A DNA stretch of 20,657 nt from Promethearchaeota archaeon (lineage in GTDB: Archaea > Asgardarchaeota > Lokiarchaeia > Sigyniarchaeales > SOKP01), in the NCBI GenBank assembly GCA_019894975.1, contig JAGXNO010000053.1, positions 1-20,657 on the forward strand. Reading direction: 5' to 3'. The translations under genes and the position numbers were made by a program. Below the pieces are notes generated by a model. It was not told the DNA's origin. It saw nothing but the letters and a program-made list of their open reading frames with translations, and did not search any database. This document shows positions 1 to 15,036 of this stretch, one piece after another; within the stretch, counting starts at the first letter, position 1, and each line of letters starts with the position of its first letter.

Positions 1-98
1 GTATCATGAAGGATAATAAAGCCAAATATGGCATTGCTAATGCGTGTGTAGGAGGAGGACAGGGCGTAGCAATCCTACTTGAAAATATAGATGCGTAA
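1..98 (+). CDS. Thiolase (acetyl-CoA C-acyltransferase), 3' end only
   Basis: The frame starting at nt 3 reads [31 protein letters not shown], with TAA at 96-98. CxGGGQG is the C-terminal catalytic-Cys motif of thiolases. Truncated by the window edge. Confidence 0.9.
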
Positions 99-136
99 GT
101 TTTCAATTAATAATTTATATTTTTATAATTTCTTAC

Positions 137-159
137 TTTTTTTTTTTATTTAATTTTTT
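137..159 (+). terminator. Oligo-T archaeal terminator after thiolase
   Basis: T11 run at 137-147 followed by a further T run, about 40 nt after the thiolase stop. Confidence 0.55.
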
Positions 160-206
160 CTCATAAATAATTCATAATTAAAGATATTTGATTCATGAGC
201 TTTCTG

Positions 207-223
207 AGAAATATTTAAATATT
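207..223 (+). promoter_or_regulatory. Putative BRE/TATA promoter of the dodecin gene
   Basis: Purine-rich GAGAAA followed by TTTAAATA (214-221), inside the palindrome AATATTTAAATATT (210-223), about 50 nt upstream of ATG 269. An SD-like AGTGA lies at 257-261. Confidence 0.5.
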
Positions 224-268
224 AGGCTATAACCAATTAACTTACAAACTAAAAAAAGTGAAATCAAA

Positions 269-505
269 ATGCCAGTATATAAAAGTATTCAATTGGTCGG
301 CACTAGTGACAAGAAAATTTAGAAGAAAGTCTTTTAAGTCTTGAGTTGGGCTGATGCTGTAAAAAATTGTTATGAAGAGGCGAAAAAAAGCTTACGTGGT
401 ATCAGAAATATTCAAATCATTGAATCTGACGTTAAAATTAAAGAAGATGTCGATAAAATGATTTATAGATGTAGAGTCCAAGTTAATTTTCAATTAGAGA
501 GATAA
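269..505 (+). CDS. Dodecin-family protein interrupted by a 27-30 nt in-frame insert (candidate intron, otherwise a recent pseudogene)
   Basis: ATG 269 gives MPVYKSIQLVGTSDK. The same frame resumes at 344 with SWADAVKNCYEEAKKSLRGIRNIQIIESDVKIKEDVDKMIYRCRVQVNFQLER* (TAA 503-505). The VYKxIxLVGTSxxSWxDA...LR.I...Y.....V.F.LE pattern and the 68-69 aa joined length match dodecins. In-frame TAG (320-322) and TAA (335-337) both lie in the insert. Confidence 0.85.
314..343 (+). other. Hairpin-forming insert, candidate BHB-type intron
   Basis: AAGA(311-314) pairs with TCTT(339-342). AAA(315-317) is a 3-nt bulge. TTTAGAAG(318-325) pairs with CTTTTAAG(331-338), including G-U pairs. The flanks TGAC(307-310)/GTTG(345-348) and GTCGGC(296-301)/GCTGAT(350-355) can also pair. 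Folded by eye, and exact borders are ambiguous. Confidence 0.55.
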
Positions 506-525
506 AAAATTTATAAACAAATCTA

Positions 526-540
526 TTTTTTTTTCTTTTC
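526..540 (+). terminator. Oligo-T terminator after the dodecin gene
   Basis: T9 (526-534) followed by CTTTTC, about 20 nt after the stop at 505. Confidence 0.55.
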
Positions 541-644
541 CTTGAATCAATTTAAATATATTAAGAACTCTTTTCAAAACAATTGTTAAATTTTAAATAT
601 GATGTGCTTTATTTAGATTTAAAAACGTTTTAGATTTGATTTCG

Positions 645-776
645 ATGTTACAATGGGATGCTATTACTGATTTATTATCTAATCCTGTCGTTTTTAGATA
701 TATTATAGGTGGTGTAGTACTTCTGGTGGTAGTTATTATTTGCTGTATAATTCATAATAAATTAAAGAAATCATAA
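645..776 (+). CDS. Small single-pass membrane protein (43 aa), not in the ORF track
   Basis: ATG 645 to TAA 774-776 encodes MLQWDAITDLLSNPVVFRYIIGGVVLLVVVIICCIIHNKLKKS, with one hydrophobic helix and a basic tail. It fills the gap up to the convergent TPR gene. TATA-like TTTAAATA motifs lie upstream near 551 and 592. Confidence 0.65.
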   Translation: MLQWDAITDLLSNPVVFRYIIGGVVLLVVVIICCIIHNKLKKS

Positions 777-777
777 T

Positions 778-1521
778 TTATACCTCTAAATCATCCAGAA
801 ATTTAATTATGTCTGGTAATTTAGCCTTATTTATAATCAAGAAATCTCCATCTATTTCACATTGATATTCTTTGCCCCATTCAATCAAAATTTTATACAA
901 TTTTTCCTTGTCTATATCTAGTAAGGATTGGATCATATCAATTCTAATTTTTTTTGAGACTTCGAGTAAAGACTTTAGAGTTTCTAGATTTTTATCGTGA
1001 TTATATTCTTCTTTACTTCTTTTTAATTCTTCTAAATTGCTTAAAATCTGATTCCTCGCATTAGAAGCATAGGGAAACTTGGAGTCTATCTCCAAAGCTT
1101 TTTCGTAATAGTTTAATGCCTCTTGAAACTCTCCTTCGCTCTCATAAATCAACCCAATGTTATATAGGCAGTATTTGTAGTCTGGTTTAATCTTAATTGC
1201 TTCTTCATAACATTCTTTCGCCTCTTTGATCTTGGATAAATTTACATTAGCTATTCCAAGGTTATAATAAGCTCTATAGTTATCCGGTTCGATTTCTATA
1301 ATTCTCTTAAACATATCCCTCGCTTTTTTATATTCCAAAGTAAAATCGTCATTGAGGTAACCGCCATAAGCGAGTAGCGTTCCCACAAGACATTTTTTAA
1401 CTTGCTTAGAATCAGAATTATTTTTGTAGAGATCTTCTAATATTTCTAAAGCTTCTTTAAAATTTTCTTGATGTCTCAGATTTACAGCTTTATTAATAAG
1501 TTCTTTGATTGTATCAGTCAT
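778..1521 (-). CDS. Tetratricopeptide repeat protein with a C-terminal winged-helix (PCI-like) domain
   Basis: Canonical TPRs (AYYNLGIANVNLSKIKEAKECYEEAIKIKPD; CLYNIGLIYESEGEFQEALNYYEKALEID). The C-terminal helix-helix-hairpin segment ending EIDGDFLII is inferred to be a winged helix. Confidence 0.85.
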   Translation of the reverse strand: MTDTIKELINKAVNLRHQENFKEALEILEDLYKNNSDSKQVKKCLVGTLLAYGGYLNDDFTLEYKKARDMFKRIIEIEPDNYRAYYNLGIANVNLSKIKEAKECYEEAIKIKPDYKYCLYNIGLIYESEGEFQEALNYYEKALEIDSKFPYASNARNQILSNLEELKRSKEEYNHDKNLETLKSLLEVSKKIRIDMIQSLLDIDKEKLYKILIEWGKEYQCEIDGDFLIINKAKLPDIIKFLDDLEV

Positions 1522-1535
1522 TTCTACTTCTTATT

Positions 1536-2003
1536 TTATATTTCATGCTCATACCAACTAAATTTGGATTTATTTATTCCGAGTTTCAGAAAAAGACTCC
1601 TTAAAGCACTATCAGAATCAGGGCAGATATAATACACATTATCAATTTTAAGGGTTCTTTTTACATATAATTGAATTTCTCGCATGATCTTCTCTTCAAT
1701 CCCTCTTTTAAAAGAATCTTCTTTTTTAGTTAAAACTTGATGGATTAATACTCTATCATTTCCTAGGTAATCCCTAAATATTGTATACGTTCCAAAACCC
1801 AATATTTTGCCCTCTTCTTTAGCAATTACCATCGAATTCCTATACTGAAGATCAAGCGCTCTCCGATTTAATTCTTCTTCAAACTTTTTCCAATGAGAGA
1901 AGAAATATGATTTTTTTTCAATAAAATCCTCAAAGATCTCCTTGATTGCAGGTTTATCATTTCTTGGGTCAAATCTGTCAATTATAATCATAAATTCCAC
2001 CAA
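1536..2003 (-). CDS. GNAT-fold N-acetyltransferase-like protein
   Basis: MVIAKEEGKILGFG strand, motif-A-like KEDSFKRGIEEKIM, and C-terminal ALRSLFLKLG. The length of 155 aa fits. Start codon uncertain (TTG, GTG or ATG). Confidence 0.6.
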   Translation of the reverse strand: MVEFMIIIDRFDPRNDKPAIKEIFEDFIEKKSYFFSHWKKFEEELNRRALDLQYRNSMVIAKEEGKILGFGTYTIFRDYLGNDRVLIHQVLTKKEDSFKRGIEEKIMREIQLYVKRTLKIDNVYYICPDSDSALRSLFLKLGINKSKFSWYEHEI

Positions 2004-2123
2004 AAGGGAAATAAATTTTGTGTTAAAATGTATAATTGTATAAGTTTCTTTTTCTTTTCAAACTTAATTAATGTTTAATAACAACTATTTTTTAGAATTT
2101 GATCTTTATACAAATGATAAATA

Positions 2124-2654
2124 ATGCCTAATACAAAAAATAATTCCCCCCATAATGAAAGGAAATTATCAATCCCAATTAAAATATTAAACAAGGATAC
2201 AGAAGTTCCAAAAATAACTAAGTTTGGTGACGCGGGTGCAGATGCACGGATAATTGGTTTCAAAAGGATAATTGTAAAAGGAGATGAAAAGGAATTAGAA
2301 GATATTAAAGCAGATTCTTATACTTTGAAGCCTTTGGAAAGAATAGGGTGTCCTCTTGGATTTGCTACAGCTATTCCCGAAGGATATTACTTTAAAGTTG
2401 TTCCTAGAAGCGGTTTAGCATTATGGGAAGGATTATCTATAGTAAATTCTCCTGGTACGATTGATTCGGGTTATCGTAATGAATGGATGGCTATTGTAGT
2501 TAACCTTTCAAATAAAGAGGTAACAATTAAAAAGGGGGAACGAATTTGTCAGATTATCTTAGGAAAACTTCATAGTTATGAGTTTATTGAGACTCAAAAA
2601 CTGCCCGAATCTGCAAGGGGTCTCAAGGGTTTCGGTTCCACCGGAAAGGAATGA
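2124..2654 (+). CDS. dut: Trimeric dUTP diphosphatase
   Basis: All five dUTPase motifs are present: AGAD, PRSGLA, GTIDSGYR, GERICQ, RGLKGFGSTG. Confidence 0.95.
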   Translation: MPNTKNNSPHNERKLSIPIKILNKDTEVPKITKFGDAGADARIIGFKRIIVKGDEKELEDIKADSYTLKPLERIGCPLGFATAIPEGYYFKVVPRSGLALWEGLSIVNSPGTIDSGYRNEWMAIVVNLSNKEVTIKKGERICQIILGKLHSYEFIETQKLPESARGLKGFGSTGKE

Positions 2655-2682
2655 AATTATTAAATTTAAATTATAGTGAGGT

Positions 2683-2907
2683 ATGCTTAAAATGTCAGAA
2701 TTAAGTCATGAAGAGAAATTTATAATCGAAAAACTCAAGGAAAAAGAAGGGAAGCTAAATTATAAGGATTTACAAATCCTATGTCAAGATGAATTTGAAG
2801 GGGTCAGATTAATTTTGAAAAAATTAAAAGAGAAGGGATTTGTTGAATACGAAGGAGGGGGGATTCCTGGTTTTTCCACTGAAATTGTGTTAGTAAAAAA
2901 GGATTAA
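2683..2907 (+). CDS. Small winged-helix DNA-binding-like protein
   Basis: LSHEEKFIIEKLKE...LNYKDL...VRLILKKLKEKGFVEY followed by a beta-wing. SD-like GTGAGGT lies upstream. Confidence 0.65.
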   Translation: MLKMSELSHEEKFIIEKLKEKEGKLNYKDLQILCQDEFEGVRLILKKLKEKGFVEYEGGGIPGFSTEIVLVKKD

Positions 2908-2984
2908 TTTTAAATATCCCTCAATAGAAAAACTCTTATTTCTTTTTTTATTTCCTTAACTAGAAATTAGGCTAAGGATATGTT

Positions 2985-4499
2985 ATGATCGAAAATGATT
3001 CAAAATCAGTAAAAAACAATTATATCGAACAGATTTTAAACCCTAAAAAGATCTGTGTTTTTGGAGCAAATGACAATCTATTGGGAACAATGGGTTCAAT
3101 GCAACTTCGTAATATTATTGCAGGGGGCGGATTTGAAGAGATTTATCCTATCCATCCAAGATTAGAATATGTCCAAGGATTTAAAGCATATAAATCCGTA
3201 TTGGATCTCCCTGTAATTCCAGATTTAGCATTTATAATATTACCAACAAGAGTTGTTCCTACCGTTATGGAGGAATGTGGTCAAAAAGGTATAAAAAATT
3301 TGATAATTACTTCTGGGGGTTTCAGAGAAGTTGGTTCCGATGGAATTGAGTTATCTAATCAAATTGATATCATTGCAAAGCAATACAATATGAGATTTAT
3401 TGGTCCAAACTGTTTAGGAGTATTCAATGGATGGTATGGATATCCTGAAAAGGAGAATACGTTTCTTAATACTTTTTGGATATATCTTCCCCATAAAAGG
3501 GGTAATATTTCAATTGTGAGTCAATCAGGTACTATCGCTGCTCAAACAGCGTGGTATACAAATGATCTGGGTGTAAATGTTGGAAAATCAATATCAGTTG
3601 GCAATGAAAGAAGTATTGATATAGTAGATCTTCTGGAATATTTCAAAAATGATCCTCAAACAGAGGTTATTGGTCTGTATATTGAAGAGGTCAAACGTGG
3701 TAAAAAATTTATAAAATTAGCCAAAGAAATATCTCCAAAAAAACCCATTGTTGCTATTTATGCGGGAGGTACCAATGCTGCGGCAAGGTCTATAATGTCT
3801 CATACGGGTTCTATTAGTGGTGATGATAAGATATATGAAGCTATATTTAAGGAATCAGGTATAATTTCAACTAATTCTATATCGGATTTCTTATATTACC
3901 TCAGAACGTTATCTCAAGCACAGACTTATAATTTTTTTCCTAAGGGAAAACGAATTGGAATAATAACTGACTCAGGTGGACCAGGAGCAATGATGACGAA
4001 AACAGCTGAGTTGTATGGCTTGGAAGTTCCTGAATTTTCTAAACGACTACAAGATGAATTTTCTGATGATCTACCTAAAACGGGTAGTGCTACGAATCCA
4101 ATCGATGTAACCTTTCATGAAAACTTCTTAACTATGTTGATTAAATTTCCAAAAATATTGATGAAATCTGGGGAGGTTGATAGTATTATAGTGTTTGGTA
4201 TTTATGATTTTGATGAGGTTATGGATGTAGTTGAGAGTTCAGGGGGCAAAGTGGATGAACAGATGAAACAAATGAAACAGCTGATGGATATAGGCGTTGT
4301 TAATCCTATAAAAAAACTTATGAAAAAATATCATATCCCGGTATTTTATTCTGGCCCAATTCCTTATAGATCTCCTTGGATGCAGAAATTTATCTCGTCT
4401 GATGTGCCCATTTTTTCATTATGGGATTATCCTACCAAGTGTTTGGCAATGTTGACTAAATACTCTGAATATCGACAAAAAGTGTCTTACTCTAAATAA
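2985..4499 (+). CDS. acdA: ADP-forming acetate/acyl-CoA ligase (ACD) alpha subunit
   Basis: CoA-binding N-domain (ICVFGA, IYPIHP), IGPNCLG, SQSG, phospho-His motif SHTGS, DSGG and NPID. No ATP-grasp beta domain is fused. Confidence 0.88.
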   Translation: MIENDSKSVKNNYIEQILNPKKICVFGANDNLLGTMGSMQLRNIIAGGGFEEIYPIHPRLEYVQGFKAYKSVLDLPVIPDLAFIILPTRVVPTVMEECGQKGIKNLIITSGGFREVGSDGIELSNQIDIIAKQYNMRFIGPNCLGVFNGWYGYPEKENTFLNTFWIYLPHKRGNISIVSQSGTIAAQTAWYTNDLGVNVGKSISVGNERSIDIVDLLEYFKNDPQTEVIGLYIEEVKRGKKFIKLAKEISPKKPIVAIYAGGTNAAARSIMSHTGSISGDDKIYEAIFKESGIISTNSISDFLYYLRTLSQAQTYNFFPKGKRIGIITDSGGPGAMMTKTAELYGLEVPEFSKRLQDEFSDDLPKTGSATNPIDVTFHENFLTMLIKFPKILMKSGEVDSIIVFGIYDFDEVMDVVESSGGKVDEQMKQMKQLMDIGVVNPIKKLMKKYHIPVFYSGPIPYRSPWMQKFISSDVPIFSLWDYPTKCLAMLTKYSEYRQKVSYSK

Positions 4500-4647
4500 C
4501 CCCTCAAACCAAACATGATATAATCTACCAACAAAAACTTTCTTAATCGATTCTTTGTATTGTTTCCACTAATTATTTATATAAATTCTTTCTATGATCA
4601 TTTGAAAGATATTTTAAAAACAGATTCACTAAATTAAGTCTTGTAAA

Positions 4648-5640
4648 ATGCCGATTGAATTCTATAATCCCCCTTCTGCGATTTTAGCCTCTGGATCCAA
4701 GTTAGGGGTTGAGCTTGGAGGGTCAAAGAGTATTTTAAGCATAGATCAATTTCATAATCTCTATTCTGAAGGTTCAGTTTTTAGTGAGTTAAGTTGGGGT
4801 GCATTTTATCAAGAAGAGGGGCTTACTGATCAGATAGATACATTCGAAACAAAAGAGTACGATTCTGTTCGAGAAGATCCTAAAGCGCTGGTTCAAAAAA
4901 TTGTTGAAAGTATCTACAATATAATGAATGGCCAGAAACTCTTTTATGGCATCGTTGACTTTGAAGTAGATGCTTTTCTTAATCAAAATACTATTATTCC
5001 TGGATTAAAATTAGATTATCAAATTATCAACAAATTACTGGACGCTCATAAGAATACCCGGGATAGAGAACTATTTCCGAAGATTTTGTCTGATGCAAAA
5101 GGTACAAAAAAAATCCGATTAGAATTCCAGGGAACTAAAAGGGTGAATCTCCATTTAAATGGTACAAAGTTGGAGGATTATGCAGATAATTTGAGAGTAG
5201 CTAAAGGTTTCGCTACAGGAATAGTGTGTACCTCTAGAGGGGCCGCGAACCTTTATATCATGAGCGATAATATCACATTCAAGGAAGACATAATCCCTGA
5301 GCTCTATATTGATGAAGAAAACCTTATTATTATTGATATGGGAATTGAAAGGCAGTTATTATTCCCTATTAGCTGGTTTAGAATAGATCTTGGAATTAAA
5401 TCATTAGAAACACTCGAACTCTGGGAGGAAATAAAAACCGATCCAAAGTTAGAAAAAGCACTAAGTTATTATGATCGTTATATTGGTGGTTTAGTTTATA
5501 AAAAATTTCAAGTTATGGCTTCTACAATTGGTACTGATGTGGGTGATGAGTTTGATAATTTAAATCCCACAGAAAGAAGACAAGCACTAAGAGATATGGC
5601 AGAAGTTATTAGGAAATTAACAGATGAATATAAGAAATAG
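4648..5640 (+). CDS. Hypothetical protein (330 aa)
   Basis: Long ORF with globular composition and an upstream TATA-like TTTATATA near 4577. No motif recognised. Confidence 0.8.
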   Translation: MPIEFYNPPSAILASGSKLGVELGGSKSILSIDQFHNLYSEGSVFSELSWGAFYQEEGLTDQIDTFETKEYDSVREDPKALVQKIVESIYNIMNGQKLFYGIVDFEVDAFLNQNTIIPGLKLDYQIINKLLDAHKNTRDRELFPKILSDAKGTKKIRLEFQGTKRVNLHLNGTKLEDYADNLRVAKGFATGIVCTSRGAANLYIMSDNITFKEDIIPELYIDEENLIIIDMGIERQLLFPISWFRIDLGIKSLETLELWEEIKTDPKLEKALSYYDRYIGGLVYKKFQVMASTIGTDVGDEFDNLNPTERRQALRDMAEVIRKLTDEYKK

Positions 5641-5657
5641 CAGTTCTTCAGATCTTT

Positions 5658-5963
5658 CTATTTCTTTAATATCCTTGGTGCTTTGAAATATCCATCCTGT
5701 TTATATTTTGTATTTTTTGTAGCTTCTTCGTTTGAGAGAGACTCCCAAGGTTCGTCTTCTCGAAACACATTGAATAATCCTTCAATAGGGTGAGTAGTAG
5801 GTTCAATATTAGTCGTATCTAGATCATCTAATTTCTTAAAATAGTTAACTATGTCTCCTAGTTGTTTAGAAAGCTCTTCCTTTTCTTCTTCAGATAATTC
5901 TAATAGTGCTAACTTGGTAAGATGATCAATTGTTTCTTTGGAAAATTCTTCTTTTTTAGACAT
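5658..5963 (-). CDS. gatC: Asp-tRNA(Asn)/Glu-tRNA(Gln) amidotransferase subunit C
   Basis: IDHLTKLALLEL...IVNYFKKLDDLDTTNIEPTTH...NVFRED...DGYFKAPRI is the GatC pattern. ATG at 5963 is preferred over the TTG at 5975. Confidence 0.93.
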   Translation of the reverse strand: MSKKEEFSKETIDHLTKLALLELSEEEKEELSKQLGDIVNYFKKLDDLDTTNIEPTTHPIEGLFNVFREDEPWESLSNEEATKNTKYKQDGYFKAPRILKK

Positions 5964-6112
5964 GACACAACTCAAATAACTATAAATATAAGATCAAATT
6001 AAGTTTAACCATTTATTAGATATATACTTCTGAATCTCTAAAAATTATATTTCCCGCAAATTCTATATAATATAATAAAAAGAAATAATTAAAACCCACA
6101 TTTTAAAAAATT

Positions 6113-7242: not shown

Positions 7243-8970
7243 ATGTCGACAAATTTAGGAGAAGAAGATATATTAAGAAAAAAGATTTGGAAAATTATCA
7301 ATTTAATCCAAGCGAATCAACTATTTGTCCATTATAAAGAATTAAATATCAAACACTCTACTGATAATGGTAAAAAACTCCAGTCAAGAAATTTACCTGA
7401 AATTTTGACTTTGTGCATTTTAAATGCAATTGTTGCCAATTCAGCAATGCTCTTAATTGGTGGCCACGGAGGTGGGAAGACCAGCCTCACGAAGATTTTA
7501 GGAAGAATGTTTACAGCAAGTTCACTTAATGATATTGAAACCTCAATTATAAGGGGACATCCTCAATTAACTGAAGAAAAACTCATAGGTACATTAAAGC
7601 TTGGGAAACTGATGAAAGAAGGTGAGGAAGTGGTTGTATGGAGACAATTTGTAACAAATTTTTGGAAAATCATTGATGAGGTAAATCGCTTAACCCCCTA
7701 TGCTCAAGACATCCTATTATCACTTCTTGCTGAAGGTACGGTCAAATATTATGATTCTATAAGAACAATTAATAAATACTGCTTATTTGCTACTATAAAC
7801 CCAAACGATGTTGGGACGTTTGAATTATCTCAACCATTTCTGGATAGATTTGGTATTTCTGTTCCGATCGCAATGCCCGCGAGTCATGACTTACAACTGA
7901 TCTTGGCAGGAAAGGATGAAAAATACTCCGGACGAGATGAATTAATACAAGTTCCTAAAGTTTTAAATATTGATGAATTAATGGAAATTTGGTATTATGT
8001 TAATAGAATTACTTTTACTTCTGAAGTAAATAATTATATCCATGCTATAATAAGAGAATTTACCTTATGCTCAAGGGTCGACAAAGGTAATATCGAAGAA
8101 TTAAAACCAAGTACAGGTCTATGTACGGGTTGTCATTTTAATACAGTTCAGAATATTTGTAATAAAATTGATTCGATATTAAGCGTTAGAGTTGCGAAGG
8201 ATTTATTAAGATATTCAAAAGCCCTAGCATGGCTATTGGGAATTAGTACGATTGATGTCAATATTGTAAATACTATTGCACCATATGTAATATCACATCG
8301 AGTTATCTATGTTAAAAGAGAACTCGATAAATCTCCTTATTTCGGGAAAAGATATGAGTTTTCCAAGAATATGTTAAAAATAGTTCAAAAGCGTTTTAAA
8401 AATCGTGAACCGTGTTATCAAATATCTGAACGATTTCGAGAAGGAAATTCGAAAGAAACAGATCTAGCAGAACTAATAAAATTTGAAAAAAATGATTTAA
8501 TTGTAAAATTTGATTTAATCCCATTTGTGAACTCAGTTAACAATAAAAATTACCCTCCTCTTGCTCAAGAGATCAAAGAAGCTGCAAAAAAAGGAGATAT
8601 AAATACATTAGCGAAAATAAGAAATGATCTATTAGAGGATATTGATTTCCCAAATAGGGGAGATCTAATCGAATGGTGTAACCATGAGCTTTATAAGCAA
8701 ACTGTTACAGATTACATCATTAAGTTTTCTTATTGGAAAGATATTTGGGCGGATATCGCTGCCGAATTTTCAAATTTAGATCAACCTCTTAAGGACGCGT
8801 TTAGTCAACGGCAAACGAAACAAATACGTACTGAAGATCTAATAATTGAAATTAATGTAACTGGAACTAACGAAGATTCCTTAGTAAACATTCAAATTTC
8901 TGGAGGATCTGAGGCCCTAAAATTAAGATCGTTAATGGATAAATTAGAATATATAGAAAAACAAGATTAA
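7243..8970 (+). CDS. MoxR-type AAA+ ATPase
   Basis: Walker A GGHGGGKT, Walker B IIDEVNR, sensor I ATINP, Arg finger FLDRF and sensor II LSVR. Directly upstream of a VWA gene. Confidence 0.88.
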   Translation: MSTNLGEEDILRKKIWKIINLIQANQLFVHYKELNIKHSTDNGKKLQSRNLPEILTLCILNAIVANSAMLLIGGHGGGKTSLTKILGRMFTASSLNDIETSIIRGHPQLTEEKLIGTLKLGKLMKEGEEVVVWRQFVTNFWKIIDEVNRLTPYAQDILLSLLAEGTVKYYDSIRTINKYCLFATINPNDVGTFELSQPFLDRFGISVPIAMPASHDLQLILAGKDEKYSGRDELIQVPKVLNIDELMEIWYYVNRITFTSEVNNYIHAIIREFTLCSRVDKGNIEELKPSTGLCTGCHFNTVQNICNKIDSILSVRVAKDLLRYSKALAWLLGISTIDVNIVNTIAPYVISHRVIYVKRELDKSPYFGKRYEFSKNMLKIVQKRFKNREPCYQISERFREGNSKETDLAELIKFEKNDLIVKFDLIPFVNSVNNKNYPPLAQEIKEAAKKGDINTLAKIRNDLLEDIDFPNRGDLIEWCNHELYKQTVTDYIIKFSYWKDIWADIAAEFSNLDQPLKDAFSQRQTKQIRTEDLIIEINVTGTNEDSLVNIQISGGSEALKLRSLMDKLEYIEKQD

Positions 8971-8978
8971 TTTAAATA

Positions 8979-10697
8979 ATGTCTCTGTCTAAAAGAAAGA
9001 AAACTAAAGGGAGTAAGAAAGAATTAACCATCAAACAAAAGAGAATTGTTGATTTAGCAAAGATAGCGTGGGCTGAAACTTTAAAAGAATTTTATTATCC
9101 TCCTCTAAATGAGCCAACCTACTTATTTGATTATACCCATTTGGAAGGATTTTATATTGATCCTGAAAACCAATGGGAAATAACAATGAATCTTGCTAAT
9201 ACTCCATTGTTCAATGATGATCAAGAGTATATTGATTACTTTCATAGTATTTCACTCCATGAAGTTTCACATTACCAGATTATTCCTTATGACGGTTTAA
9301 CAAATGCAAAATTGCTTCGAGCAGCGATAGAAAATGTTAATCCAAATTATGCTCCTATTGTGGTAAATGTTTTTGCAGATCTGATTATTGATTATTTACT
9401 ATACAAAAAATATCCAAATCTGATAACATGGGAAGTAAAAGTAACCTATGAACACATTAAAAATAAAGGGAGAATGAGTGATTTCACTAAATTTCTATTC
9501 CGATCTTATGAGAAAATTTGGAATCTTAACCTCCTAAATGACGATTCACTAAAAAGTATTGATCCATTAGCTGAAAGGGTATCCAAAGTTATCCTTAAAG
9601 ATTTTGAAGATGAGTCCACATGGGAAAAAAAGGTTTCTACCGTTGCGAGGCATTTAAACAATTTAATTCAAGATTCATTCACGATGGTTGGTAAGAATGT
9701 AGTAAGAGAGAAAGGAAAAGAAAAAATCAAAAGTCCGGGAGGGGCATTTATTGAAGTTCCTAATGATGTTTTAGAAGTTATGGGTAATCCTCTCGAAAAT
9801 AAAAATTCTGATAAATTAAAAGAAAGTAATGAGGATGAAAGAAGACAAAAAGCTGAAGAATTTGCAAAAAATATCCCATACTCTGAGTTTGGTGGACCTG
9901 CAAGGCAAGCAGGCATTTTATTAGATGGAATTCCTCTGGCTACATGGTATAGAGGATTAGCAAAGAATCTTATTGAAATCAGAATACTTGAGGAACAACC
10001 AAGTGGACAATTACCTGTCTATCCGGAAGTGTGGCGTATAGGTGATAGAATTGAAGATCTAGATATAGTTCAAACTTTACTAAATAGTCCTGTTATCATC
10101 CCCAATCTTACTACTAGAAAATGGGCTTATGAAAAGGGACCAGGCCACCTTACAGAAAAACAAATTCCAGATTTATTACTCGTTTTAGATTCCTCTGGTT
10201 CTATGAAGTGGAATTACACATCAAGAATAGAAAGAGGGAGGGGCCCATATCATGTAGCACTAGTTGCTGCTTTTGCAGCTCTTCATTACGCCGCAAATAA
10301 GGGAGTTAAATTTAGCGTAATTAATTTTTCAAACAAAGCAGACGTTTGTCAATGGACGGCAGATTTTAAAAAAGCTGAGCGTGTGTTATTAAGATATCAA
10401 GGAGGAGGTACAGTTCTGCCAATAGATGAAATTGTTCAGCAGTGTGATAAGGCCGAAAGGAAAGCTCTTATTTTTATAATTACTGATTTTGGCATTTATA
10501 ATTGGAGTAAGTCTAAAAAAATAATGTTAGATTTAGCTCAACGAGGCCATAAGATTGTAGGGTTTTTCATAGGAGCATCTAAAATACCAAAAGATAAATT
10601 TAAAACCCTCTTGGATAAAGTGACTTTCTACGGAATAAGAGATGCTAAAGATTTAATTGATTTAGTTATTACTGAGGTCAAAAAATATTACTTATGA
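8979..10697 (+). CDS. VWA (MIDAS) domain protein with an N-terminal HExxH metallopeptidase-like domain
   Basis: LHEVSH (9255-9272) with downstream NVFADLII. The C-terminal VWA has LVLDSSGS, GGGT and IITD. Starts 8 nt after the AAA stop. Confidence 0.88.
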   Translation: MSLSKRKKTKGSKKELTIKQKRIVDLAKIAWAETLKEFYYPPLNEPTYLFDYTHLEGFYIDPENQWEITMNLANTPLFNDDQEYIDYFHSISLHEVSHYQIIPYDGLTNAKLLRAAIENVNPNYAPIVVNVFADLIIDYLLYKKYPNLITWEVKVTYEHIKNKGRMSDFTKFLFRSYEKIWNLNLLNDDSLKSIDPLAERVSKVILKDFEDESTWEKKVSTVARHLNNLIQDSFTMVGKNVVREKGKEKIKSPGGAFIEVPNDVLEVMGNPLENKNSDKLKESNEDERRQKAEEFAKNIPYSEFGGPARQAGILLDGIPLATWYRGLAKNLIEIRILEEQPSGQLPVYPEVWRIGDRIEDLDIVQTLLNSPVIIPNLTTRKWAYEKGPGHLTEKQIPDLLLVLDSSGSMKWNYTSRIERGRGPYHVALVAAFAALHYAANKGVKFSVINFSNKADVCQWTADFKKAERVLLRYQGGGTVLPIDEIVQQCDKAERKALIFIITDFGIYNWSKSKKIMLDLAQRGHKIVGFFIGASKIPKDKFKTLLDKVTFYGIRDAKDLIDLVITEVKKYYL

Positions 10698-11995: not shown

Positions 11996-13840
11996 GTGAA
12001 TTTCTCTTTGAATGGTTTTACAGGAAAACTTTTGATAATAAATTTAGATAATAATGGTATTACAGAAGAGCCCTTGAATGAAGAAATAGCAAAGAACTTC
12101 CTTGGGGGGGCAGGATACTGCTGTAAATACTTATATGATAAATTAGATAAAGATACGGATCCTTTATCTCCGGAAAATATTATAATGTTTATGACAGGTC
12201 CCTTCTGTGGATCTAATATACCTTCAAGTGGAAGGTTTGTCGTGTGTGCTAAGTCTCCTTTAACAGGAATTTGGGGGGAATCAAATTGCGGGGGATTTTT
12301 CGGACCTGAATTGAAGAAAGTAGGATTTGATGGAATTATAATAAAAGGAGCTTCAGACACACCCGTATATATAGAAATCACTGAAAATAATGTGAGTATT
12401 AAAGATGCTACTCCAATATGGGGAAAGGGTATCTTTGAGACATCTAAGATATTAAAAGAAAAATTAGGTGCAATTGCGCGAGTTGCATGCATTGGACCTG
12501 CTGGTGAAAATCTTGTAAAATACGCAATAATTGCATCAGAAGATAGAGCTGCAGGAAGAACTGGGATGGGTGCAGTAATGGGGTCAAAAAAATTAAAAGC
12601 TATAGTCGTTAAAGGTGTAAAAGTAGGATATACTCCTGCTAATCCTCAAAAACTTAAAGAAACTATAAAAAAAGCAAGAGATCATATTATGGATTCATTC
12701 ATTCCTCAAGCGTTTGGCCAGTTAGGAACTTCGGGAGGAGTTGACACAGGTAACGCTTATGGAGATTTACCAATTAAGTATTGGACATTAGGCACATGGA
12801 AAGAGGCATATAAAATCTCAGGGATAACTGCTTTTGAAACAATTTATACGAGAAAATATCATTGTTATTCATGTCCTATTGGATGTGGTCATAAAGTCTT
12901 TATAAAAGAAGGAGATTATAAAACAGAAACAGAAATTCAAGCAGCTGAATATGAAACTGTAGTAGGATTCGGTTCACTGATATTAAATGATAACTTAGAA
13001 TCTATAGAGAAAGCAAATTATTTATGTAATGATTATGGGGTTGATACGATTAGTGGAAGTAGCACTATTGCCCTACTATACTATCTTTTTAATAATCAGA
13101 AAATAAAATCTGAAGATATTGATGCTCTTGAACCAAAATGGGGTGATGTCATTCCAGCTCTTAAATTAATTAAGAAAATTGCTTTTAGAGAAGGTATTGG
13201 AAACTTGCTAGCAGACGGTTCTGATGCTGTTGGGAAAGTTTTTAAGATACCGCAAGATGAAATTGCTACAGTCTATGGTATGGAAGTACCATATCATGAT
13301 GTACGACATATTTATGGTATGGCTATAGCATATGCTTTAGGTACACCGAGAGGACCATGTCATGAGTCTTGTGATATGTTTCTTCTGCTGATGGGTTCTC
13401 GACTTGAAAGTTTTGGGATTGAACCGATTGAATGGGATCAGAATGATGATAAAATGGCAATTGTTAGTGCATTGGCTCAAGATTATCGTGCTATTTATAA
13501 TTCAATGATTATGTGTAATATTGCAGATCCTCTACCTGAAATGATTATAGATCTTATCGATGCCGCGATAGGATTGAGCTTAAATATGACAGATTTTAAA
13601 AAGTTAGGGGAAAGAATCTATATGATCAAACGAATGTTCAACCTAAAAATGGGGATCACACCTGATGATGATAGATTACCCCAGATATTGCTAAATCCTG
13701 TTAAAGAAGGTGGTGCAGCAGGAAAAACCCCGAATTTTGAAAAATTAAAAAAGGCATATTATAGGTACCGAACTTTTGATGCTAAAACAGGTTATCCAAA
13801 TCAAGGAAAATTAAAACTATTGGGATTAGATAATCTTTAA
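11996..13840 (+). CDS. aor: Tungsten-dependent aldehyde:ferredoxin oxidoreductase family protein
   Basis: KSPLTG..GESNCGG, IGPAGENLV, GRTGMGAVMGSKKLKAI, Fe-S motif CYSCPIGC, EYET, GVDTIS and RGPCH; 614 aa. Confidence 0.95.
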   Translation: MNFSLNGFTGKLLIINLDNNGITEEPLNEEIAKNFLGGAGYCCKYLYDKLDKDTDPLSPENIIMFMTGPFCGSNIPSSGRFVVCAKSPLTGIWGESNCGGFFGPELKKVGFDGIIIKGASDTPVYIEITENNVSIKDATPIWGKGIFETSKILKEKLGAIARVACIGPAGENLVKYAIIASEDRAAGRTGMGAVMGSKKLKAIVVKGVKVGYTPANPQKLKETIKKARDHIMDSFIPQAFGQLGTSGGVDTGNAYGDLPIKYWTLGTWKEAYKISGITAFETIYTRKYHCYSCPIGCGHKVFIKEGDYKTETEIQAAEYETVVGFGSLILNDNLESIEKANYLCNDYGVDTISGSSTIALLYYLFNNQKIKSEDIDALEPKWGDVIPALKLIKKIAFREGIGNLLADGSDAVGKVFKIPQDEIATVYGMEVPYHDVRHIYGMAIAYALGTPRGPCHESCDMFLLLMGSRLESFGIEPIEWDQNDDKMAIVSALAQDYRAIYNSMIMCNIADPLPEMIIDLIDAAIGLSLNMTDFKKLGERIYMIKRMFNLKMGITPDDDRLPQILLNPVKEGGAAGKTPNFEKLKKAYYRYRTFDAKTGYPNQGKLKLLGLDNL

Positions 13841-15036
13841 AAGTCAATATCTTTTCCTTCATAAGCATATGTATAAATTTTCGCAAATTCTTCCTTGGTT
13901 GGAGTTCTTGGGGCCATTACACTGCTGGGATCTTGAAAGCATAAACTAATTACTTTATCAAGATTTTTCTCGAATTCATCCCTTTTAATGCCTAAATCTT
14001 TAAGATTAGAAATAAATTTTACTTCCTTTTGAAGTTCTTTAATTTTCTCGACAACAGTATAAGCTGCTTTCTTGTTTTCATCATCCCATTTTGCCCATCC
14101 TAACTTTTTAGCTAAATCTGAATACATTAAAATTGAGTCATTTGTTTCACCAGGAGCATTTAAACAATATTGGGTTATATATCTAAGGAAAAGGCCTACC
14201 GATTGTCCATGAGATGTATGAAAAACTCCACTCCAACTATGGCCTATTGCATGACCTATATGAACTTGAGCATTACTAAAGGCTAAACCAGCTATACTAG
14301 CTGCTTGATGCATATAATCTCTTGCTACTTTGTTATTCCCATCTTTATACACTAAGGGCAAATATTTGAATAAAAGTTCAATAGCCTTAATTCCCAGTGC
14401 ATTAGAAAATTCATTTCTCCAACCAGAGGTATATCCTTCCATTGCATGTGCTAATGAATCAAATGCCGTATCAACAGTTAATTTGGGAGGCATTCCCATA
14501 GGAAAGATGGGATCAATAATAGCATAGGTCGGGATCAATGATTTGTGACCTAATGACGCTTTTCTCCAAATATTATTTTGAAATCTGGAGATAAGGATTA
14601 CCCAAGACACCTCGGCTCCTGTTCCCGAAGTAGTAGGAATAGCAATTAAATTTGCTTTATTACCTATATCAAATAAATCTTCATTAAAGGGATCAATATT
14701 ATCCAGAGTAAATTCCGGTTTTTCATACAGTGCCCATATTGCTTTTGCTGAATCCATAACAGAGCCCCCTCCTAAAGCTATTATTAAATCCGGCTCATAT
14801 GAAATACATTGTTCTTTTCCTTTCATGATATCATCTTCATAAGGATCTGGCACTACATCATTAAAAACAGTATATTTTCTGCCATATTTTTCAAGTCTGT
14901 CAGTTAAAATCTTTAAATAGCCTAATTCTTCAATTACTTTATCAGTAACAATAAAGCATTTTTTTCCTTTTATTTTTTCCAAGAATTCTAGAGAATCTTC
15001 GCCGTATATTATATTTGGGCTAAAAAAATACCACAT
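13837..15036 (-). CDS. Iron-containing alcohol dehydrogenase
   Basis: GGGSVMD, IPTTSGTGAE, and metal ligands in DSLAHAMEG, HAIGH and HGQS. Confidence 0.95.
   Translation of the reverse strand: MWYFFSPNIIYGEDSLEFLEKIKGKKCFIVTDKVIEELGYLKILTDRLEKYGRKYTVFNDVVPDPYEDDIMKGKEQCISYEPDLIIALGGGSVMDSAKAIWALYEKPEFTLDNIDPFNEDLFDIGNKANLIAIPTTSGTGAEVSWVILISRFQNNIWRKASLGHKSLIPTYAIIDPIFPMGMPPKLTVDTAFDSLAHAMEGYTSGWRNEFSNALGIKAIELLFKYLPLVYKDGNNKVARDYMHQAASIAGLAFSNAQVHIGHAIGHSWSGVFHTSHGQSVGLFLRYITQYCLNAPGETNDSILMYSDLAKKLGWAKWDDENKKAAYTVVEKIKELQKEVKFISNLKDLGIKRDEFEKNLDKVISLCFQDPSSVMAPRTPTKEEFAKIYTYAYEGKDIDF

What the first reader, a model, noticed from the sequence alone, without database searches (positions are those of the whole stretch)
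269..505. Candidate bulge-helix-bulge intron inside a protein-coding (dodecin) gene
Seen in the sequence: a complete dodecin ORF with a TATA box, SD-like motif and oligo-T terminator, and no other visible lesion. Between GTSDK and SWADAV sits AAAATTTAGAAGAAAGTCTTTTAAGTCTTG, which keeps the frame and holds two in-frame stops (TAG 320, TAA 335). The insert and flanks fold into an inner stem 318-325/331-338, a 3-nt bulge AAA (315-317), a 4-bp helix AAGA/UCUU (311-314/339-342), a bulge near 343-344, and exon-exon stems 307-310/345-348 and 296-301/350-355. Established: archaeal EndA cuts BHB motifs after the second bulge nucleotide and RtcB ligates the exons. mRNA introns of this type are rare, with crenarchaeal cbf5 the classic case. 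Inference: this may be a spliced mRNA micro-intron in an Asgard-like archaeon, invisible to ORF callers and possibly a regulatory switch. Caveat: the 3' bulge is 2 nt in the best register, so strictly canonical cuts (after 316 and 344) would remove 28 nt and lose the frame. Removing 317-343 (27 nt, GTSDKKSW) or 314-343 (30 nt, GTSDKSW, the usual dodecin spacing) restores it, so a relaxed motif is needed.
Basis: partly seen in the sequence, partly recalled or inferred. Interest (0 to 1): 0.85.

Follow-up and report, generated by a model that had tools for sequence, protein, structure and literature searches.

The report
tRNA-type mini-intron in Asgard dodecin gene
The only dodecin gene of this Loki-type Asgard archaeon is interrupted by a 30-base hairpin shaped like an archaeal tRNA intron, and relatives carry similar inserts at four other sites of the same tiny gene, so the mRNA is very probably cut and rejoined by the tRNA-splicing enzymes, which has been published for only one other archaeal coding sequence (cbf5).

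Summary
The dodecin gene (269-505) carries a 30-nt in-frame insert with TAG 320 and TAA 335. The canonical bulge-helix-bulge (BHB) register is helix 310-313/340-343, bulges 314-316 and 344-346, and intron hairpin 317-325/331-339. Cuts after 315 and 345 remove 316-345 and give GTSDK-N-WADAV, as in nearly all intact orthologues aligned.

In the same Lokiarchaeial genus, 9 of 45 dodecin-bearing genomes hold 10 such inserts (30-34 nt) at five sites. In each, the canonical cut restores the orthologous protein; the 4-bp helix is complete in nine and 3/4 in one. Exons of intron-sharing species show dN/dS of 0.03-0.05, and stem changes are compensatory.

The insert is unique in the genome, which also encodes two EndA paralogues and RtcB. 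I confirmed similar 30-31-nt inserts in its eS30, RNase HII and cdhC genes. This scan had already flagged the class on other pieces of this genome.

A 400-kb comparison suggests such introns are rare, about one per several hundred genes, so dodecin is a hotspot.

No RNA data were available, so splicing is inferred, not shown. The exon-exon outer helix is nearly absent (relaxed motif).

The parts
214..223 (+). TATA-like promoter box (TTTAAATATT), 46-55 nt upstream of the ATG
   Evidence: Read. The block is conserved in the same-genus orthologue alignment. Function is inferred.
258..261 (+). SD-like GTGA 8 nt upstream of the start codon
   Evidence: AGTGAAAT is conserved upstream of the ATG in nearly all orthologues. 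Function is inferred.
269..315 (+). Dodecin exon 1 (MPVYKSIQLVGTSDK plus the first two bases, AA, of the Asn codon)
   Evidence: It is identical or near-identical to the first 15 residues of the orthologues.
310..313 (+). 5' strand (CAAG, exon) of the 4-bp central BHB helix; pairs with 340-343
   Evidence: 4/4 Watson-Crick pairs.
314..316 (+). 5' bulge AAA; predicted EndA cut between 315 and 316
   Evidence: Geometry. The cut itself is inferred.
316..345 (+). 30-nt BHB mini-intron holding in-frame TAG 320-322 and TAA 335-337
   Evidence: It is absent from intact same-genus orthologues and unique in the genome. G048 has an 87%-identical homologue at the same site.
317..339 (+). Intron hairpin h': stem 317-325/331-339 (9 bp, two of them G-U) with loop AAAGU 326-330
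   Evidence: The four differences from the G048 homologue lie in the loop (2), in the bulge (1) or turn U-G into C-G (1).
340..343 (+). 3' strand (CUUG, intron) of the central helix
344..346 (+). 3' bulge AGU; predicted EndA cut between 345 and 346. Only one outer exon-exon pair follows (309:347).
   Evidence: outer helix count 1. The cut is inferred.
346..505 (+). Dodecin exon 2 (the T that completes the Asn codon, then WADAVKNCYEE...NFQLER and TAA 503-505)
   Evidence: Pfam Dodecin positions 15-64, E 2.8e-9.
526..534 (+). T9 run, a likely archaeal oligo-T terminator
   Evidence: a T-run is conserved downstream of the stop codon in all orthologues. Function is inferred.

Best explanation
Bases 316-345 are a tRNA-type (bulge-helix-bulge) mini-intron inside the coding sequence of the single dodecin gene of a Lokiarchaeial (Promethearchaeota) MAG.

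Proposed mechanism:
1. The gene is transcribed with the insert.
2. In the pre-mRNA, exon bases 310-313 pair with intron bases 340-343. The intron hairpin 317-325/331-339 closes one side, and 314-316 and 344-346 are left as 3-nt bulges.
3. The splicing endonuclease EndA, here a two-paralogue and presumably (alpha-beta)2 enzyme, cuts after A315 and G345.
4. RtcB joins the exons to GAC AAG AA|U UGG and probably circularises the 30-mer.
5. The spliced mRNA encodes a normal 68-residue dodecin (..GTSDKNWADAV..). Unspliced RNA would stop at UAG 320 after 17 residues.

Shown here: the geometry, exact restoration of the orthologous sequence, recurrence at five sites in congeners, structure-preserving substitutions, purifying selection on the exons, and presence of the enzymes. 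Inferred: cleavage and ligation in vivo.
For: 1. At the register fixed by the orthologues, the motif has a 4/4 central helix, two 3-nt bulges and a 9/9 inner stem. Canonical cuts give DKNW, as in nearly all intact orthologues aligned. No shuffle in 20,000 matched it.
2. In the genus, 9 of 45 dodecin-bearing genomes carry 10 inserts of 30, 31, 32 or 34 nt at five sites:
   - A' (G|T): G047
   - A (K|N): G000, G048
   - B (VK|N): G012, G049
   - C (VK|E): G061, G043, G048
   - D (DK|L): G015, G046
   In each, the canonical BHB cut restores the orthologous protein exactly. Four lengths are not multiples of 3. The central helix is 4/4 at representatives of all five sites. Chance per site is 0.01-0.065, giving a product of about 1e-7.
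3. Compensatory change occurs between exon and intron at site B: GGUC/GACU in G012 against GGUU/AACU in G049. At site A, the G000 and G048 introns differ at 4 of 30 bases, none breaking a pair, while exon dS is 1.8.
4. dN/dS between species that share an intron:
   - site B: 0.038
   - site C: 0.051
   - site A: 0.034
   Against the nearest intact genes it is about 0.01-0.15. The interrupted genes therefore stayed functional.
5. The insert is unique in the genome, and this is the only dodecin copy.
6. There are two EndA paralogues. One is closest to the subunit in chain B of the Aeropyrum (alpha-beta)2 enzyme, 3p1z_B, E 1e-34. The other is divergent. RtcB is present.
7. The same test confirms 30-31-nt inserts in eS30, RNase HII and cdhC of this genome, and one in G005.
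Against: - There is no RNA evidence. No RNA run holds the locus, and only DNA contigs could be laid.
- The exon-exon outer helix is almost absent (0-2 pairs in all ten introns), so the motif is the relaxed HBh' form rather than strict hBHBh'.
- The MFE fold prefers the neighbouring register (A314:U339), and the local fold is not more stable than shuffles (z -1.1).
- In G048 the site-A central helix is only 3/4. G012 has ATA at the start codon, so some copies may be decaying.
- Dodecin was not found in 9 of 54 genus genomes, so it may be dispensable.
Confidence: 0.85

Rival explanations
1. The insert is a DNA-level hairpin insertion (a small palindromic or MITE-like element, or a replication foldback) that simply inactivates the gene. 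On this view the interrupted dodecins are young pseudogenes and are not spliced.
For: - The insert is an imperfect palindrome with stops.
- Dodecin was not found in 9 of 54 genus genomes, so it may be dispensable.
- G012 has ATA in place of the start codon.
- The intron distribution on the gene tree is patchy, needing 7 changes for 9 rows.
Against: - There is no second copy in 3.9 Mb at up to 6 mismatches.
- Ten inserts of unrelated sequence all place a 4-bp exon-intron helix and two 3-nt bulges so that canonical cuts restore the protein exactly.
- The exon and intron halves of the helix covary.
- dN/dS is 0.03-0.05 at dS 0.7-1.8 between species that share the insert. There are no other stops or frameshifts in any exon.
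Confidence: 0.08
2. The ribosome bypasses the insert during translation, as with phage T4 gene 60 or the byp elements of yeast mitochondria, so the insert stays in the mRNA.
For: It is a short, stop-containing, hairpin-forming insert in an otherwise intact gene under selection, which resembles byp elements in outline. That resemblance rests on my own knowledge.
Against: - The junction that reproduces the orthologues falls inside a codon (AA|T), which hopping between matched codons cannot produce.
- The only matched pair near the ends, AAG 311-313 and AAG 336-338, lands directly before TGA 342-344.
- The precise BHB geometry at all ten inserts has no role in bypassing.
- As far as I know, bypassing of this kind has not been reported in archaea.
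Confidence: 0.03
3. The insert is an assembly or binning artefact, or belongs to a contaminating strain.
For: - The MAG has 8.6% estimated contamination.
- Logan contigs of run X3 break between 308 and 322.
Against: - Contigs of X3 match 158-308 and 322-479 with no mismatch, covering the 3' 24 nt of the insert joined to exon 2.
- Nine genomes of the genus (separate GTDB species representatives) have such inserts, and G048 has a homologous one at the same site.
- The flanking genes match those of congeners.
Confidence: 0.01

Closest known systems
BHB intron in the cbf5 (pseudouridine synthase) pre-mRNA of Crenarchaeota (Watanabe 2002; Yokobori 2009, PMC2738675)
   Same: Both are short bulge-helix-bulge introns inside an archaeal protein-coding sequence. 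Both are presumed to be removed by the tRNA-splicing endonuclease and ligase, and both show lineage-specific presence and absence. PMC7714728 states that cbf5 is the only coding-region case reported, alongside a 5'UTR intron.
   Different: - The gene (dodecin) and the phylum (Asgard, Lokiarchaeia) differ.
- There are five insertion sites in one 207-nt gene, polymorphic among congeneric species, whereas cbf5 has a single ancestral site.
- Here the motif is consistently the relaxed form without an exon-exon helix.
- Splicing of cbf5 was shown experimentally; here it is not.
Non-canonical tRNA introns of Thermoproteales and of Asgard archaea (Marck and Grosjean 2003, from my own knowledge; Asgard census preprint 10.64898/2026.10.13.758758)
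   Same: The motif is the same (4-bp helix, two 3-nt bulges, intron hairpin). The two-paralogue EndA, taken as (alpha-beta)2, is also shared. The preprint reports many independent gains at different positions, and gains across genomes are seen here too.
   Different: [quoted passage not shown] The preprint does not report mRNA introns.
BHB intron in the 5' UTR of Haloferax volcanii HVO_1309 (PMC7714728)
   Same: It is an mRNA substrate of archaeal EndA. The circular intron was detected and cleavage was confirmed in vitro.
   Different: It lies in the untranslated leader (46 nt) and does not interrupt the reading frame.
IRE1/RtcB unconventional splicing of XBP1/HAC1 mRNA in eukaryotes (from my own knowledge)
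   Same: It works alike: a small intron (26 nt in XBP1) is excised from a coding sequence by a protein endonuclease acting at stem-loop structures. The exons are joined by RtcB in animals, without a spliceosome, and this changes the protein made.
   Different: The endonuclease and recognition motif differ (IRE1, twin stem-loops). It is stress-regulated, and there is no evidence here of regulation. This is an analogy, not membership.

Membership tests
Archaeal BHB (EndA-spliced) intron | [quoted passage not shown] | tested here: met
   CAAG 310-313 / CUUG 340-343, with bulges 314-316 and 344-346. The same holds in 9 further dodecin inserts, with the helix 4/4 in 8 and 3/4 in 1.
Archaeal BHB (EndA-spliced) intron | Cuts after the second nucleotide of each bulge leave a functional, correctly joined RNA | tested here: met
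   In silico, removing 316-345 gives the DKNW junction and a full 68-residue dodecin matching the orthologues. The same is true for all ten inserts, including the 31-, 32- and 34-nt ones.
Archaeal BHB (EndA-spliced) intron | Flanking helices h (exon-exon) and h' (intron) of the strict hBHBh' form | tested here: not met
   h' is present (9 bp), but h has only 0-2 pairs in all ten inserts. The motif therefore fits the relaxed HBh' class. From knowledge of the family, that class is cleaved by (alpha-beta)2 and epsilon2 EndA but not by alpha4 or alpha'2 enzymes (PMC5829648 abstract).
Archaeal BHB (EndA-spliced) intron | The host encodes a splicing endonuclease able to take relaxed motifs, plus an RtcB ligase | tested here: met
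   There are two EndA paralogues, on C22 and C55. The first is closest to the Aeropyrum and Pyrobaculum heterotetramer chains 3p1z_B, 3ajv_B and 2zyz_B. The second is divergent and, by eye, lacks the catalytic Tyr and His. RtcB is on C90. The subunit architecture is inferred, not shown.
Archaeal BHB (EndA-spliced) intron | Structure conserved through compensatory change in homologous copies | tested here: met
   At site B the helix changes C-G to U-A across the exon-intron pair. At site A a U-G becomes C-G and all other changes lie in the loop or bulge. At sites C and D the stems are rebuilt with different bases. Each site has only 2-3 sequences.
Archaeal BHB (EndA-spliced) intron | Spliced RNA and excised (circular) intron observed, or cleavage shown in vitro | not testable with these tools
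   No RNA run holds the locus. Only DNA contigs were laid.
MITE / REP-like repeated insertion | Many related copies in the genome | tested here: not met
   There is one copy only at up to 6 mismatches for the 30-mer, the 38-mer and the 65-mer. Inserts at the five sites share no obvious sequence by eye.
Programmed translational bypass element | Matched take-off and landing codons that give an open frame across the gap | tested here: not met
   AAG 311-313 to AAG 336-338 lands before TGA 342-344. The orthologue-restoring junction splits a codon.

The most novel reading that the evidence does not exclude
A genus of Lokiarchaeia, among the closest prokaryotic relatives of eukaryotes, maintains a turnover of 30-34-nt introns in protein-coding genes. 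These are spliced by the tRNA endonuclease and RtcB, and are gained and lost fast enough that a single 68-codon gene shows five intron positions among congeneric species. That would be protein-enzyme mRNA splicing with eukaryote-like presence/absence polymorphism in an archaeon. It would also mean that gene callers systematically miscall such genes as pseudogenes.
Probability: 0.8. Interest if true: 0.85.

Novelty: new variant of a known kind. Interest (0 to 1): 0.8.

Why it matters
- **Rarity.** In the papers I could search, BHB introns inside archaeal coding sequences are known from one gene, crenarchaeal cbf5 (PMC2738675, PMC7714728). I found no report for Asgard archaea.
- **Recurrence.** The dodecin case shows the phenomenon is not a one-off. 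Five positions in one tiny gene, each with exact BHB geometry and exons under purifying selection, imply repeated gain or loss of mRNA introns in relatives of the eukaryotic ancestor.
- **Testability.** It offers a small system for in vitro EndA/RtcB assays on a roughly 60-nt substrate. It also offers a natural series for asking how BHB introns arise at new sites.
- **Annotation.** Such genes are called as broken or split ORFs, so metabolic reconstructions of Asgard MAGs may lose genes such as cdhC, eS30 and RNase HII.

Tried and rejected
1. **Ab initio genome-wide scan.** I searched G000 for BHB motifs (4/4 helix plus inner stem) whose excision merges ORFs, with and without a codon-usage filter. 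Counts at the canonical cut did not exceed decoy cuts shifted by 1-2 nt. Background from adjacent genes and AT-rich hairpins swamps the signal, so this gave no genome-wide count.
2. **RNA evidence.** No RNA holder is listed for window 1-6000. The one run labelled metatranscriptomic (X20) covered only 1084-1555, at under 90% likeness, and not the gene.
3. **DNA contigs.** No intron-less allele of this strain was seen. X3 contigs stop at 308 and resume at 322, which is unexplained. A hole in coverage proves nothing.
4. **Thermodynamics alone.** The MFE of 300-360 is -13.5 kcal/mol, z -1.1, and it picks the neighbouring register. It is not informative by itself.
5. **Bacterial promoter/terminator scan**. 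This is not applicable to archaeal signals.
6. **Other inserts nearby.** An all-against-all blastn of about 120 3.2-kb loci found 12-150-nt insert clusters only in dodecin. Sensitivity is limited for divergent neighbours.
7. **MITE and bypass readings.** Both were rejected; see the rival explanations.

Full report
**What is in the sequence.**
The window is a whole 20.7-kb contig (C124) of a 3.9-Mb, 31.6% GC MAG. Close relatives carry titles such as "Promethearchaeota archaeon", the Loki lineage of Asgard archaea.

From ATG 269 to TAA 503-505 the + strand reads MPVYKSIQLVGTSDKKI*KKVF*VLSWADAV...NFQLER*. The stops are TAG 320-322 and TAA 335-337, and there is no other lesion. Read through, it matches Pfam Dodecin over positions 1-64, and it is the only dodecin locus in the genome. 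Exon 2 alone (347-502) matches profile positions 15-64, so nothing is missing except that ten extra codons sit between positions 14 and 15.

A TATA-like box (214-223), GTGA (258-261) and a T9 run (526-534) are conserved in the orthologue alignment.

**The right register.**
Intact orthologues of the same genus read GTSDK-NWADAV, with Asn in nearly all of them. I scored every pair of cut sites with the standard BHB rule. That rule is a 4-bp helix between two 3-nt bulges, a cut after the second bulge base on each strand, and an inner helix that starts right after the 5' bulge.

The best-scoring candidate in the gene is:
- helix CAAG 310-313 / CUUG 340-343
- bulges AAA 314-316 and AGU 344-346
- inner stem 317-325/331-339 (9 of 9 pairs) with loop 326-330

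Cutting after 315 and 345 removes 316-345, exactly 30 nt. It joins GAC AAG AA|T TGG, which reads DKNW as in nearly all intact orthologues.

Of the 77 excisions that keep LVGTS and ADAVK in one frame, this one has the best motif. In 20,000 shuffles of the insert, a 4/4 helix at this register occurred in 1%, and 4/4 plus 9/9 never.

The MFE fold also prefers that neighbour, because A314 and A317 compete for U339. The local fold is not significantly stable by energy alone (z -1.1). The exon-exon outer helix is nearly absent (one pair, 309:347), so this is the relaxed HBh' form.

**Comparative evidence.**
A Pfam-guided search of 54 genomes of the genus found dodecin in 45. After fetching the odd ones, nine genomes proved to hold ten inserts at five sites:

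| Site | Position in protein | Genomes | Insert length |
|---|---|---|---|
| A' | LVG\|TS | G047 | 31 nt |
| A | DK\|NW | G000, G048 | 30 nt |
| B | AVK\|NAY | G012, G049 | 32 nt |
| C | VKVK\|EDV | G061, G043, G048 | 31 nt |
| D | DIDK\|LIY | G015, G046 | 30 and 34 nt |

Two further genes are cut by contig ends.

In every case the canonical BHB cut restores an uninterrupted protein collinear with the orthologues. The central helix is 4/4 in nine inserts and 3/4 in one. Four of the lengths are not multiples of three, so those genes would be frameshifted unless the insert is removed.

Inserts at the five sites share no obvious sequence, and the helices differ: UUGG/CCAA, CAAG/CUUG, GGUC/GACU, GGUU/AACU, AGUU/GACU and AUUG/CAAU. 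At one representative per site, the chance of a 4/4 helix at the orthologue-defined register is 0.01-0.065, a product near 1e-7. Allowing for a few equivalent registers per site does not change the conclusion.

Dodecins of ten genomes from other families of the order are uninterrupted. A metagenome contig from permafrost also shows a 31-nt insert at site C.

**Selection.**
Species that share an intron have diverged strongly at synonymous sites but hardly at all in protein:

| Site | Genomes compared | dN/dS | dS |
|---|---|---|---|
| B | G012 vs G049 | 0.038 | 1.46 |
| C | G061 vs G048 | 0.051 | 0.68 |
| A | G000 vs G048 | 0.034 | 1.77 |

Interrupted genes against their nearest intact neighbours give about 0.01-0.15. 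No exon has a stop or frameshift.

The introns themselves are constrained. The G000 and G048 site-A introns differ at 4 of 30 bases: two in the loop, one in the 3' bulge, and one that turns U318-G338 into C-G. At site B the outermost... rather, one central-helix pair changes from C-G to U-A through a synonymous exon change and an intron change together. This is what an RNA structure under selection looks like, and not what a pseudogene looks like.

On a gene tree built from 204 nt, and so weakly resolved, the site-B pair and the G061/G048 pair are sisters. Sites C, D and A each occur in separate clades, so several gains, losses or transfers are needed.

**Rival readings.**
- *Repeated mobile element.* This is excluded by copy number: there is one copy at up to 6 mismatches.
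- *Translational bypass.* This does not fit. The restoring junction splits a codon, and the only matched codon pair lands before TGA 342-344.
- *Assembly artefact.* This is unlikely. Nine genomes of the genus (separate GTDB species representatives) carry such inserts, and run X3 has exact contigs over 322-479, which joins intron to exon 2.
- *Recent inactivation.* This remains possible for individual copies. G012 has ATA at the start and G048 has a 3/4 helix. It cannot explain the class.

**Machinery.**
The genome has two EndA paralogues of about 200 residues. One is closest to the chain-B subunits of the crenarchaeal (alpha-beta)2 enzymes (3p1z_B, E 1e-34; also 3ajv_B and 2zyz_B). The other is divergent and, by eye, lacks the catalytic Tyr and His. 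RtcB is present.

A recent preprint reports the same two-paralogue arrangement in most Asgard genomes, in the context of intron-rich tRNAs. It does not mention mRNA introns. From knowledge of the family, (alpha-beta)2 enzymes accept relaxed motifs (PMC5829648), which matches the missing outer helix.

**Is it a genome-wide habit?**
Earlier notes of this scan list the same kind of insert in other genes of this genome. I tested three of them with the same procedure:
- eS30: C108:5919-5949, 31 nt, CUGG/CUAG, restores ..SLTKAGKVKMQTPK..
- RNase HII: C94:15062-15033 on the minus strand, 30 nt, 4/4 plus 8/9, restores GIDEAGRGPVIGPLV
- cdhC: C131:19387-19358 on the minus strand, 30 nt, 3/4 plus 9/9

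To gauge frequency without bias, I fetched the first 400 kb of a closed congener (G005) and compared it with G000 by tblastn in both directions. The method finds the dodecin intron as a positive control. It found no intron in G000 among 339 orthologue-like pairs, and one 30-nt BHB insert in G005 (near base 337,487, ACCU/GGGU) among 595.

So these introns are rare, roughly one per several hundred genes. Dodecin, interrupted in 9 of 45 genomes at five sites, is a hotspot. The 3.2-kb flanks of dodecin in about 120 genomes show no other insert clusters. An ab initio motif-plus-ORF scan could not separate signal from decoys.

**What is known.**
In the library searched, coding-region BHB introns are reported only for crenarchaeal cbf5 (PMC2738675). 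A 2020 study of Haloferax EndA substrates says so explicitly and adds one 5'UTR intron (PMC7714728). Four searches found nothing on mRNA introns of this type in Asgard archaea.

The dodecin intron is thus a new case of a known mechanism, in a new lineage, with an unreported pattern of many polymorphic sites in one small gene. In function it also resembles IRE1/RtcB splicing of XBP1 mRNA, but that is an analogy only.

**Verdict.**
Splicing is inferred from geometry, recurrence, covariation, selection and enzyme content. It has not been seen in RNA. Confidence is about 0.85.

Noticed in passing
G000 C108:5919-5949 (+); C94:15062-15033 (-); C131:19387-19358 (-): Three other genes of the same genome (ribosomal protein eS30, RNase HII, acetyl-CoA synthase cdhC) carry 30-31-nt inserts with BHB geometry. 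Canonical excision restores conserved motifs: KAGKV, GIDEAGRGPVIG and SAMANQTGGGKQ.
   Followed up: partly
G005:C1 about 337,480-337,520 (loci L158-L159); orthologue of G000 C143:11946-12329: A 30-nt BHB insert (ACCU [AU|A] ... GGGU [AU|G]) with two stops lies in a gene of unknown function of a closed congener genome. It is absent from the G000 orthologue, and excision gives ..KSTYSCNL|CAVTFGAFG..
   Followed up: partly
L029 (G012), start of dodecin; L053 (G049): G012's dodecin has ATA where all others have ATG, and there is no in-frame start upstream. This may be decay, an error or a rare initiator. Its sister G049 uses GTG and ends ..QLEV instead of ..QLER.
   Followed up: no
window 440-444, run X4 (permafrost metagenome contig): A related environmental contig has about 31 extra bases at dodecin site C, with a sequence unlike the site-C introns of G061, G043 and G048. 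This would be a further independent intron-bearing allele.
   Followed up: no
L047 and L054 (G063 C185 and C299), L051 (G042 C96): Contigs of two MAGs end inside the dodecin gene, and in G063 the two halves lie on two contig ends. The cause was not determined.
   Followed up: no
L116 (DATKTW010000099.1): A contig of a MAG titled 'Candidatus Nanopelagicaceae bacterium' (Actinomycetota) carries a dodecin 88% identical to the Lokiarchaeial one and nests among them in the tree. It is probably a mis-binned contig. Several MAGs carrying near-identical dodecin genes (90-100% identity) are titled Odin-, Thor-, Hermod- or Hodarchaeota, which looks like inconsistent labelling.
   Followed up: no
window 308-322, run X3: Logan contigs of an independent sample match the window exactly on both sides but break within the 5' part of the intron. 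The contig over 322-479 has 19 leading bases that do not lie on the window. The cause is unknown.
   Followed up: no
window 7243-10697: A neighbouring gene pair encodes an AAA_5 (MoxR/dynein-like) ATPase followed by a VWA-domain protein. Further on lie an aldehyde:ferredoxin oxidoreductase (11996-13840) and an Fe-alcohol dehydrogenase (13837-15036, minus strand). All are uninterrupted.
   Followed up: no
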